A stretch of 64,000 nt of DNA, the filler included, from Perkinsus olseni (Eukaryota): NCBI GenBank assembly GCA_013115125.1. It is 7 parts of 7 records of this genome, joined end to end, with 100 filler letters (N's around TTAATTAATTAA, not from the genome) between each part and the next. Parts side by side here need not be neighbours in the genome. Positions count along the whole stretch, not along the records: positions 27,829 to 36,992 come from JABANN010000929.1; 6 more parts are not named here. One strand, given 5' to 3'. The notes beneath the pieces were generated by a model. It did no database searches and was not told the origin of the DNA. It was given only the letters and a program-made list of their open reading frames with translations. This document shows positions 32,501-33,920 of the stretch, piece by piece. Position numbers and translations under genes: made by a program. Numbering within the stretch: the first letter of the stretch is position 1; each line of letters begins with the position of its first letter.

Positions 32501-33920
32501 TGTAAGGATATCTTTGATATGCTGGAGCGTTTTGCGGGAGTCATGGGATGGGCGGCACCAGAGGTTAAAGTGATGGAGCAAGGCTGGGTGAGTGACCCCT
32601 TAAAAATGTCGTTTTGTCGAATTGTCTTCGCACTGGTTGGTCGAAGGCCCTCGTCAAACGTAATAGGGTAAAATTGATAGTGTTAGTGGAGCAGGCAACT
32701 ATTCGTTGCCGTGGAAGCGTCCCTAGCTTTTTTCCCTATCAAGCCCTCAACCACTAGCGAGAAACTGGTTTTCGAAATTGGATGCGAAATTATATGCGTC
32801 CCCCTAGTGTGTTCACGCTGAACACAATACCAACAGCGAAAGGAGGAAACAGTGAAAATGTGGTAAGGTCGGATTCTCCTCGCTCTCGTTCAGCGAAGGC
32901 CCTCATCAAGCGCAGTAGCGTCAAGATTGATTGTGCTAGTGCGAGTGGAAGAACCCGGAGGTAGTCCGCAAGGTACCGTTCTTCTCTTCAGCAATCGGGC
33001 TACCGGGAGATCATAGCAGACTTTTCTCTCAAGCCGGGCGTCAAACGTACTCCCGAAAAGGGAGTTTTCGGATTCCTTAAATTCGAGGCGGGCATACATC
33101 GGGTGAGATCGTTCATCTATCGGGATTGTCCTAGTTGTGTACCATCCGTGTAACACGATTCAGATCGCTGCCTCCACAAAATTTCGCGCAGGAGTGTCAA
33201 GAATGCACAAAATTCATTTCCGATACCACTCCTCGCCAAAATCGTAGCCCTTTCGATTTATATGAACCGGAGGCATCATAATGAACAGCTGTCCCGTCCA
33301 ATTTGTGAAGGTACAGCGCGTCCCTTCATGGCCGGCGGATAGCCTCCCGCAGACGTCCGCGTGCAGCGTTGTGGTCCTCCCTCGCGAGGACCCCAACAGC
33401 AACCTCTTACCGAAATTGAAACCGCATGAATACAAAATATGGATTACAAAGAAGTCCTCAGGACCGGGCGGTCAGTGTGTGAATGCCGCTCATCAGGCTG
33501 TGAGAATAAGACACATCGAAAGTGGAATTGAGGGGTTCGCGGATTGCTATCGGGCGTTGAAGTCGAACAAGGCTTTAGCGTTGCAGCAAGTGTCGCGGAA
33601 AATTATGGAGGAAAAAGGAAAGAAAATTGCGAAGGAGAGGGGAATTTTACGGAAACAATATATGGGGACAGGGGATCGCAGTGAAAAGATACGCTCGTAT
33701 AACTACCTCAATGGGACAGTGGTTGATCACAGGTAGGTTACTATGGTACTTTACAGAGGAGAAAGATGCGTTTTTGATCAGACTGCCGAAGCCAGATGAC
33801 GGGCTGAGCGCCCTCGAGGACATCATGAACGGCGAGGGTCTTTTGCAGGACATGATAGAACCGTTGAGGTTGCAGGAATACCGTCAGCGTGTGAAGGACT
33901 ATGTTGTTTTTGAATTGTGA
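29551..33920 (+). CDS. Organellar (bacterial-type) class I peptide chain release factor, RF1 family, multi-exon; 5' boundary uncertain
   Basis: Exon peptides MKDMFRTEV...CTVEIRPG, VGGVEAGKWCKDIFDMLERFAGVMGW, GYREII...LKFEAGIHR, VQRVP...TSACSVVVLP, SSGPGGQCVN...AVRIRHIESGI, GTGDRSEKIRSYNYLNGTVVDHR. Confidence 0.85.
29888..29959 (+). tRNA. tRNA-Pro(TGG), intronic
   Basis: 72-nt cloverleaf GGCTGTG...CCCAGCCC, D-arm TGGTCTAGTGGTATGA, T-loop GAGTTCGATTCTC. Confidence 0.95.
30887..31339. mobile_element. Tc1/mariner (pogo-like) MITE, 453 bp
   Basis: ~100-bp imperfect TIRs beginning CAGTACCGGACATCT and ending AGATGTCCGGTACTG, flanked by TA on both sides. Confidence 0.88.
31415..31486 (+). tRNA. tRNA-Pro(TGG), intronic
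   Basis: Identical to 29888-29959. Confidence 0.95.

What the first reader, a model, noticed from the sequence alone, without database searches (positions are those of the whole stretch)
33080..33500. RF1-type release factor with intact GGQ but a rewritten stop-codon reading loop (PSW)
Seen: GIHR|VQRVPSWPADSLPQTS where RF1 has GxHRVQRVPxTExxGRxHTS. The PxT threonine and the following E/G/R/H are replaced, and it is not the RF2 SPF motif. GGQ (33467-33475) and the C-terminal RSEKIRSYNY are intact. Established: this loop decodes stop codons, vertebrate mtRF1 with an altered loop acts at AGA/AGG, and Perkinsus mitochondrial genes are read with extensive frameshifting at AGG and CCC codons. Inference: this could be a specialised organellar factor for non-canonical termination or rescue of stalled ribosomes.
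Basis: partly seen in the sequence, partly recalled or inferred. Interest (0 to 1): 0.74.

Follow-up and report, generated by a model that had tools for sequence, protein, structure and literature searches.

The report
Perkinsus mitochondrial release factor, rebuilt reader
An oyster and clam parasite whose mitochondrial ribosomes must slip past stop codons inside a gene appears to have a single stop-reading release protein for that organelle, and its stop-reading loop is rebuilt in an unusual way, which may explain how those stops are skipped.

Summary
The window is Perkinsus olseni; the gene has 7 exons and 424 aa, with an RF1 fold, intact GGQ, and a normal-length loop reading PSWPADSLPQTS. 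P. marinus has the identical loop, and its protein was detected by mass spectrometry in both replicates of a mitochondria-enriched fraction. No non-Perkinsus protein I held has Trp at the PxT threonine.

This is not a spare paralogue: it groups with dinoflagellate mtRF1a, which keep PxT, and no second codon-reading factor was found in the assembly, only an ArfB/ICT1-like gene. Release at AGG/CCC is unlikely, since cox1 must pass ten such sites.

Perkinsus cob is translated through an in-frame UAG and an AAA-UAA (the Euplotes shifty-stop motif), and only cox3 ends in a stop. Best reading (0.5): a weak-binding but catalytically intact mtRF1a that loses to frameshifting at slippery stops yet still releases COX3. 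This is inferred, not assayed, and the whole protein evolves fast. It is a new variant of a known kind that makes an openly stated question testable.

The parts
31545..31744 (+). Exon 1: start codon and presequence-like N-terminus (first 40 aa: 5 R/K, 1 D/E, no hydrophobic signal stretch), then start of domain 1
   Evidence: pLDDT below 50 for residues 1-37 of the P. marinus orthologue; targeting is inferred from composition
31885..31998 (+). Exon 2, domain 1 helices
32045..32217 (+). Exon 3, end of domain 1 and first strand of domain 2
32472..32587 (+). Exon 4, with the alpha5 tip: G165 (32477-32479) and E168 (32486-32488), the Thermus G116/E119 equivalents, kept with no insertion
   Evidence: roles from passages
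32992..33102 (+). Exon 5, ending in GIHR
33103..33310 (+). Phase-0 GT..AG intron between HR and VQR
33311..33732 (+). Exon 6: recognition loop, GGQ domain, switch region
33311..33358 (+). Rebuilt recognition loop. Kept: Q181, R182, P184, T194, S195 equivalents. Changed: T186W (33329-33331), E187P, G190S, R191L, I192P. H193Q is shared with dinoflagellates.
33467..33475 (+). GGQ catalytic motif, within the dinozoan-type KKSSGPGGQ context
33551..33559 (+). RAL in place of the conserved (K/R)SQ of domain 3: a second Perkinsus-specific change, outside the loop
   Evidence: S in 335 of 341 rows, Q in 336 of 341
33677..33706 (+). RSEKIRSYNY, switch region and start of domain 4
33782..33920 (+). Exon 7, C-terminal helices and stop codon

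Best explanation
The gene is the Perkinsus mtRF1a orthologue and probably the organelle's only codon-reading release factor. Its head keeps the backbone contacts for the first U and the third-base residues but has lost the PxT threonine and the G-R-I part of the loop, so it binds stop codons weakly while GGQ stays active. Weak, slow binding lets the ribosome shift frame at the two in-frame stops of cob (UAG, +2; AAA-UAA, +1) and avoids release at UAG overlapping hungry AGG sites. It still releases at the one real stop, cox3 UAA, where the P-site codon cannot re-pair easily. Non-stop cob and cox1 messages would be cleared by the ArfB/ICT1-like protein. Shown: sequence, orthology, absence of a paralogue in this assembly, protein detection, internal stops. 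Inferred: mitochondrial location, weak binding, causal link to frameshifting, division of labour.
For: One PCRF+RF-1 locus in five own-genome searches; the GGQ pattern gives 2 loci, the second scoring best as ArfB. Groups with dinoflagellate mtRF1a: SH-aLRT 93, FastTree 99 and 98. 19 of 19 dinoflagellate-like rows keep PxT, although dinoflagellates also stop only cox3, so low use alone does not erode the loop. 82% identity to P. marinus (349 of 425 columns), loop 16 of 16. P. marinus orthologue found in both mitochondria-enriched replicates, and its accessions not found in the whole-cell table. cob in-frame TAG and AAA-TAA seen in the own assembly; K-stop present in all four species; eight COB shifts, including the +2 Gly site, read from cryo-EM density. 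Gornik 2022 predicted delayed or absent recognition there. E. coli T190A binds UAA about 250-fold more weakly with an unchanged release rate at saturation. Euplotes precedent.
Against: No assay; a Trp/Pro loop could find new contacts. The whole protein is fast-evolving (stem 1.7-2.1 changes per site; 19 of 70 conserved columns differ). Radical changes in the pre-defined loop are only 4 of 11 against 9 of 73 elsewhere, p=0.06; the p=0.002 (4 of 5 against 9 of 79) comes from a window chosen afterwards. Loop identity with P. marinus is no higher than expected from its flanks (83 of 88, 118 of 126). Q181, the residue linked to UAG reading (questioned), is kept. P. chesapeaki has TCG, not TAG, at the +2 site, and its loop tip was not seen (the model shows only DSLPQTS). 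The assembly is fragmented (3353 contigs) and searched exon by exon, so a paralogue could be missed. The enriched fraction also holds cytosolic eRF1/eRF3. The correlation rests on one evolutionary event.
Confidence: 0.5

Rival explanations
1. Compensated drift: the loop co-evolved with a divergent, fragmented-rRNA mitoribosome and still reads UAA (perhaps UAG) efficiently; frameshifting at cob stops is set by mRNA context or low factor levels.
For: Long stem and many changes outside the loop; Q181, R182, T194, G116, E119 kept; tripeptide mutants can work in vivo (introduction of PMC3974865); P-site context differs between cob (AAA) and cox3 (TTA).
Against: Published tolerated variants are PxN and PxS, which keep a hydrogen-bonding side chain; Trp and two prolines do not. 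Dinoflagellates share fragmented rRNAs yet keep PxT in 19 of 19 rows. An efficient reader would compete at two internal cob stops.
Confidence: 0.22
2. Codon-blind rescue factor: the bulky head fills an empty or poly(A)-filled A site and releases non-stop cob and cox1 products or stalled ribosomes.
For: cob and cox1 are polyadenylated without stops; hydrophobic replacement of T186 was once modelled as blocking codon binding in vertebrate mtRF1.
Against: An ArfB/ICT1-like gene exists; dinoflagellates have the same non-stop ends with PxT intact; cox3 UAA is conserved and needs a reader; codon-blind release at 18-19 pause sites would be costly.
Confidence: 0.15
3. New codon specificity: it terminates at AGG, CCC or other unassigned codons, as vertebrate mtRF1 does at AGA/AGG, perhaps as quality control.
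For: Human mtRF1 releases at AGA/AGG; altered mtRF1a heads track new stop codons in green algae; unassigned codons are abundant here.
Against: AGG/CCC are internal: 10 sites in cox1 and 6 AGG sites in cob, and full-length products exist. No gene is reported to end at such a codon. No alpha5 or loop insertion, and no canonical partner left for UAA.
Confidence: 0.09
4. Artefact or decaying gene: wrong splice site, sequencing error or pseudogene.
For: NCBI models for P. olseni and P. chesapeaki skip all or part of the loop; no transcript reads were laid on the gene.
Against: Open 7-exon frame with GT..AG introns, identical loop in P. marinus, protein detected by mass spectrometry; confident RF1 fold, pLDDT 84.
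Confidence: 0.03

Closest known systems
mtRF1a (canonical mitochondrial RF1), dinoflagellate orthologues
   Same: Domain layout, fold, alpha5 tip, GGQ context, H193Q, loop length; one clade in trees.
   Different: T186W, E187P, G190S, R191L, I192P and SQ to AL in domain 3; dinoflagellate-like rows keep PxT 19 of 19.
Non-canonical PxN/PTS organellar RF1 (Duarte 2012, PMC3472500)
   Same: Tripeptide departs from PxT in a protein that is otherwise the main factor.
   Different: Those keep a polar side chain able to bond U1, and most have a 2-residue shorter loop; here a full-length loop with Trp and two prolines.
Altered mtRF1a of Scenedesminia, Marsupiomonadales and Pseudoscourfieldia (PMC6821328, PMC12574857)
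   Same: A sole mtRF1a whose head changes track a change in organelle decoding.
   Different: There stops are reassigned to or from sense; here stops serve as frameshift sites, and Q181/R182 are kept.
Vertebrate mtRF1 (AGA/AGG terminator, PMC9810596)
   Same: PxT threonine replaced by a hydrophobic residue; organelle with unassigned AGG.
   Different: mtRF1 is a duplicate beside mtRF1a, has RT and GLS insertions and acts at gene ends; none of these holds here.
Euplotes shifty-stop +1 frameshifting with altered eRF1 (PMC5009743, PMC4759687)
   Same: AAA-UAA +1 site, UGA reassigned, proposed poor stop recognition: the best model for how it works.
   Different: Cytosolic eRF1, unrelated fold, thousands of genes; here bacterial-type RF1 and two stop sites among 18-19 shifts.

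Membership tests
mtRF1a (RF1-type organellar release factor) | PCRF + RF-1 domains and four-domain RF1 fold | tested here: met
   Pfam domains of orthologues; prfA best NCBIfam hit but below the curated cut-off, 188 vs 423 bits; model matches RF1 structures
mtRF1a (RF1-type organellar release factor) | GGQ motif | tested here: met
   33467-33475
mtRF1a (RF1-type organellar release factor) | alpha5 tip Gly/Glu without insertion | tested here: met
mtRF1a (RF1-type organellar release factor) | PxT (or PxN/PxS) tripeptide | tested here: not met
   PSW: orthologue by descent, not a canonical member by motif
mtRF1a (RF1-type organellar release factor) | Descent from the mitochondrial RF1 lineage | tested here: met
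   Clade with dinoflagellate proteins in three trees; long branch, quick methods, no identified apicomplexan or plastid RF1 included
mtRF1a (RF1-type organellar release factor) | Mitochondrial location | tested here: inconclusive
   Presequence-like N-terminus; orthologue in a mitochondria-enriched but impure fraction
mtRF1a (RF1-type organellar release factor) | UAA/UAG-dependent peptide release | not testable with these tools
   needs an assay
Vertebrate-type mtRF1 | Duplicate coexisting with canonical mtRF1a | tested here: not met
   no second PCRF gene
Vertebrate-type mtRF1 | RT insertion at alpha5 and GLS insertion in the loop | tested here: not met
RF2 / mtRF2a | SPF motif and closer match to prfB | tested here: not met
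   prfA 188 bits vs prfB 114 bits
ICT1/ArfB and C12orf65 rescue factors | Loss of the codon-recognition domain | tested here: not met
   domains 2/4 present; a separate ArfB-like gene exists

The most novel reading that the evidence does not exclude
The rebuilt head is the missing trans-acting part of the Perkinsus frameshift code: a release factor that no longer commits on a stop triplet but releases only where the ribosome cannot slip (cox3 UAA, perhaps poly(A) ends), and that may occupy stalled A sites at UAG, UAA and U-AGG (12 of 14 AGG shift sites in cob and cox1 carry UAG in the -1 frame) without releasing. That would make it a bacterial-type RF1 turned into a frame-sensing factor.
Probability: 0.15. 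Interest if true: 0.88.

Novelty: new variant of a known kind. Interest (0 to 1): 0.66.

Why it matters
Gornik et al. 2022 state that termination in Perkinsus mitochondria is unclear and guess that the factor for UAG is lacking and UAA recognition is delayed. A 2026 complexome paper expects Perkinsus-specific adjustments to the mitoribosome but does not mention release factors in its main text. This gene is a concrete candidate with five defined substitutions and a natural control in the dinoflagellate orthologue, so the question becomes a loop-swap experiment. It would also extend the known tolerance of the RF1 reading head beyond PxT/PxN/PxS and give an organellar parallel to Euplotes shifty stops.

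Tried and rejected
Transcript evidence: no RNA holder listed, and no reads were laid on the gene, so the splice junction rests on sequence signals and the P. marinus annotation. Search for other perkinsozoan orthologues: a metagenome scan with P0235 confirmed 0 of 91 candidates; the alignment scan kept 80 of 596 matches, all PxT and none closer than 39%. An unnamed PxN clade (26 clusters) could not be named; its link to Perkinsus (SH-aLRT 90) was flagged as a long-branch join and was unresolved. The careful tree did not finish. Pfam COX3 search of the own genome found nothing; cox3 was then found as a plain table-4 ORF. Loop enrichment test was borderline. In one search, rows were filtered for HR.QR, GGQ and 300-520 aa (341 kept of 380), so invariance of Q181/R182 there is by construction. 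Paper searches returned nothing; one search did not return the Plasmodium release-factor study that I recall. PMC9399869 passages had nothing relevant. Earlier-findings look-ups were empty. Rejected: plastid role (no signal-peptide-like stretch; lack of a Perkinsus plastid genome is recalled, not checked).

Full report
1. Observation. The window encodes GIHR, a 208-nt phase-0 GT..AG intron (33103-33310), then VQRVPSWPADSLPQTS; GGQ is at 33467-33475. The top homologues are Perkinsus proteins, with P. olseni models 99% identical over the part they cover. Fitting splice sites to the 423-aa P. marinus protein P0235 gives seven exons and an open 424-aa frame, identical at 349 of 425 columns. The loop is identical in P. 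marinus (16 of 16). The NCBI P. olseni models skip the loop and GGQ and fuse upstream genes; the P. chesapeaki model shows only DSLPQTS onward. This may be why the loop is easy to miss.

2. How unusual. Thermus numbering follows paper passages and the ungapped match to E. coli RF1. Among 341 non-Perkinsus rows (of 380 held, filtered for length, GGQ and HR.QR), position 186 is T in 337 and N in 4; 187 is E or D in 339; 190 is G in 331; 191 is R or K in 341. Perkinsus has W, P, S, L there, and P at 192. P184, T194, S195 and the alpha5 G116/E119 are kept; Q181 and R182 are kept too, but their invariance in that set is by construction. H193Q is shared by all 20 dinozoan-like rows. Over all 519 proteins held, W occurs only in the two P. 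marinus entries. The published survey lists 10 non-canonical PxT motifs, 9 PxN and 1 PTS, and does not mention Perkinsus. Against over-reading: the protein differs at 19 of 70 highly conserved columns (median row 1; next highest row 16), including SQ to AL in domain 3, and loop enrichment is 4 of 11 against 9 of 73, p=0.06.

3. What it is. NCBIfam ranks prfA above prfB, both below cut-off. The AlphaFold model of P0235 (pLDDT 84; loop block 88, though the alignment is mostly canonical) matches RF1 structures best. Trees group Perkinsus with dinoflagellate proteins (named members: Dinoflagellata sp. MGD, Durusdinium, Prorocentrum), an unnamed PxN clade and P0307, at SH-aLRT 93 (quick tree) and FastTree 99, or 98 with the other long branches removed. 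No identified apicomplexan or plastid RF1 was in these trees. The first 40 residues look like a mitochondrial presequence in all three species. In the P. marinus complexome tables, the orthologue (C5KBJ9/C5L930, matched) appears in low-mass slices of both mitochondria-enriched replicates, and its accessions were not found in the whole-cell table. The fraction is impure, the table was cut when stored, and peptides are not shown.

4. No canonical partner found. In the 39.9-Mb own assembly, Pfam RF-1 gave 2 loci, PCRF and a bacterial RF1 query gave only this locus, prfB gave the same two loci, and a GGQ-context pattern gave 2 hits against 0 for its control. The first exon of the second locus scores best as ArfB. 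The profile search listed no other Perkinsus RF1 among its best 120 of 8000. A paralogue in an assembly gap or cut into short exons cannot be excluded.

5. The messages it serves. Gornik 2022 report UGA=Trp, non-stop polyadenylated cob and cox1, a conserved terminal UAA only in cox3, and internal UAG and UAA in cob that are skipped. I found these in the own assembly: cob on C3348 has 6 AGG sites, ACT-TAG-GC at 30239 and AAA-TAA-C at 31032 followed by 53 more codons; cox1 on C3349 has 8 AGG and 2 CCC sites; a 225-aa Pro- and Cys-free ORF on C3346 ends TTA-TAA. K-stop is present in all four species. Cryo-EM density gave eight COB shifts, so both stops are passed in vivo. AAA-TAR is the Euplotes +1 motif, where poor stop recognition is the proposed cause. 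U precedes 12 of 14 AGG sites against 41% U at third positions (p=0.0008, sites not independent), placing UAG in the -1 frame; P-site wobble is an equally good cause.

6. Mechanism. T186 bonds to U1 and A2, H193 stacks on A2, and Q181/T194 read the third base. In E. coli, T190A raises KD about 250-fold and H197A about 100-fold; for T190A and the three other mutants of that study, release at saturation is unchanged. A head with W186, Q193 and two prolines, but intact alpha5, Q181, T194 and GGQ, is therefore most simply a weak UAA binder (inference). Weak binding fits an organelle with one true stop and two stops that must be skipped. Dinoflagellates also stop only cox3 but keep PxT in 19 of 19 rows, so what differs in Perkinsus is frameshifting and UGA recoding, not the number of stops. 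I give this 0.5, compensated drift 0.22, codon-blind rescue 0.15, new codon specificity 0.09 and artefact 0.03.

7. Known versus new. By descent it is an mtRF1a; by motif it fails the PxT test; it fails the vertebrate mtRF1, RF2 and ICT1 tests. Head changes tracking code changes are known in green algae. I found no description of this loop in searches, or in term searches of the papers opened; the library lacks most subscription journals.

8. What I saw of each paper. PMC9550989: abstract, passages, section 6 (part 1 of 2), sections 9 and 12, supplement part 1 of 3 and one term search of the cut supplement. PMC3472500: abstract, passages, section 25 (supplementary tables not seen; they could list a Perkinsus sequence). 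PMC3974865: parts 1-2 of 3. PMC13623125: passages and supplement rows. PMC12574857, PMC6821328, PMC3418547, PMC9810596, PMC5009743, PMC4759687, PMC9399869 and bioRxiv 10.1101/2024.05.25.595893: passages only (the preprint's Fig. S20 not seen). The genome-less Perkinsus plastid and the Plasmodium release-factor study are recalled.

9. Verdict. Real, expressed in P. marinus, shared by at least two species, and better tied to skipped stop codons than to AGG/CCC termination. Function is untested. Interest 0.66; new variant of a known kind.

Noticed in passing
G000:C648:51400-52150 (L002:1432-2180): Second GGQ gene, ArfB/ICT1-like, multi-exon, with a basic C-terminal piece; candidate for releasing non-stop cob and cox1 products. 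A small 'peptide chain release factor' (C5LDU1) in both mitochondria-enriched replicates may be its orthologue; not checked.
   Followed up: partly
proteins P0284, P0381-P0405: 26 clusters of unnamed environmental mtRF1a-like proteins with a short PxN loop (26 of 26) and the KKSSG signature, apparently intron-free; possibly perkinsozoan or another early dinozoan group.
   Followed up: partly
G000:C3348 (cob), C3349 (cox1), C3346 (cox3): 12 of 14 AGG shift sites in cob and cox1 are U-AGG, and the cox3 site is too; this puts UAG in the -1 frame.
   Followed up: partly
G000:C3344-C3353: The mitochondrial genome sits on several AT-rich contigs (15-18% GC); C3349 holds cox1 twice in inverted orientation, which may be an assembly effect.
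   Followed up: no
window 29888-29959 and 31415-31486: Two tRNA-Pro(UGG) genes upstream of the release factor gene, one inside an intron of the neighbouring gene model.
   Followed up: no
window about 29500-33920; proteins P0003, P0004: Public P. olseni gene models fuse the release factor with upstream genes and omit the loop and GGQ; the P. chesapeaki model omits about 45 residues including the loop tip.
   Followed up: yes
PMC13623125 S1 table: A release-factor glutamine methyltransferase (C5K5B3) was detected in replicate 2 of the enriched fraction, consistent with GGQ methylation being available.
   Followed up: no
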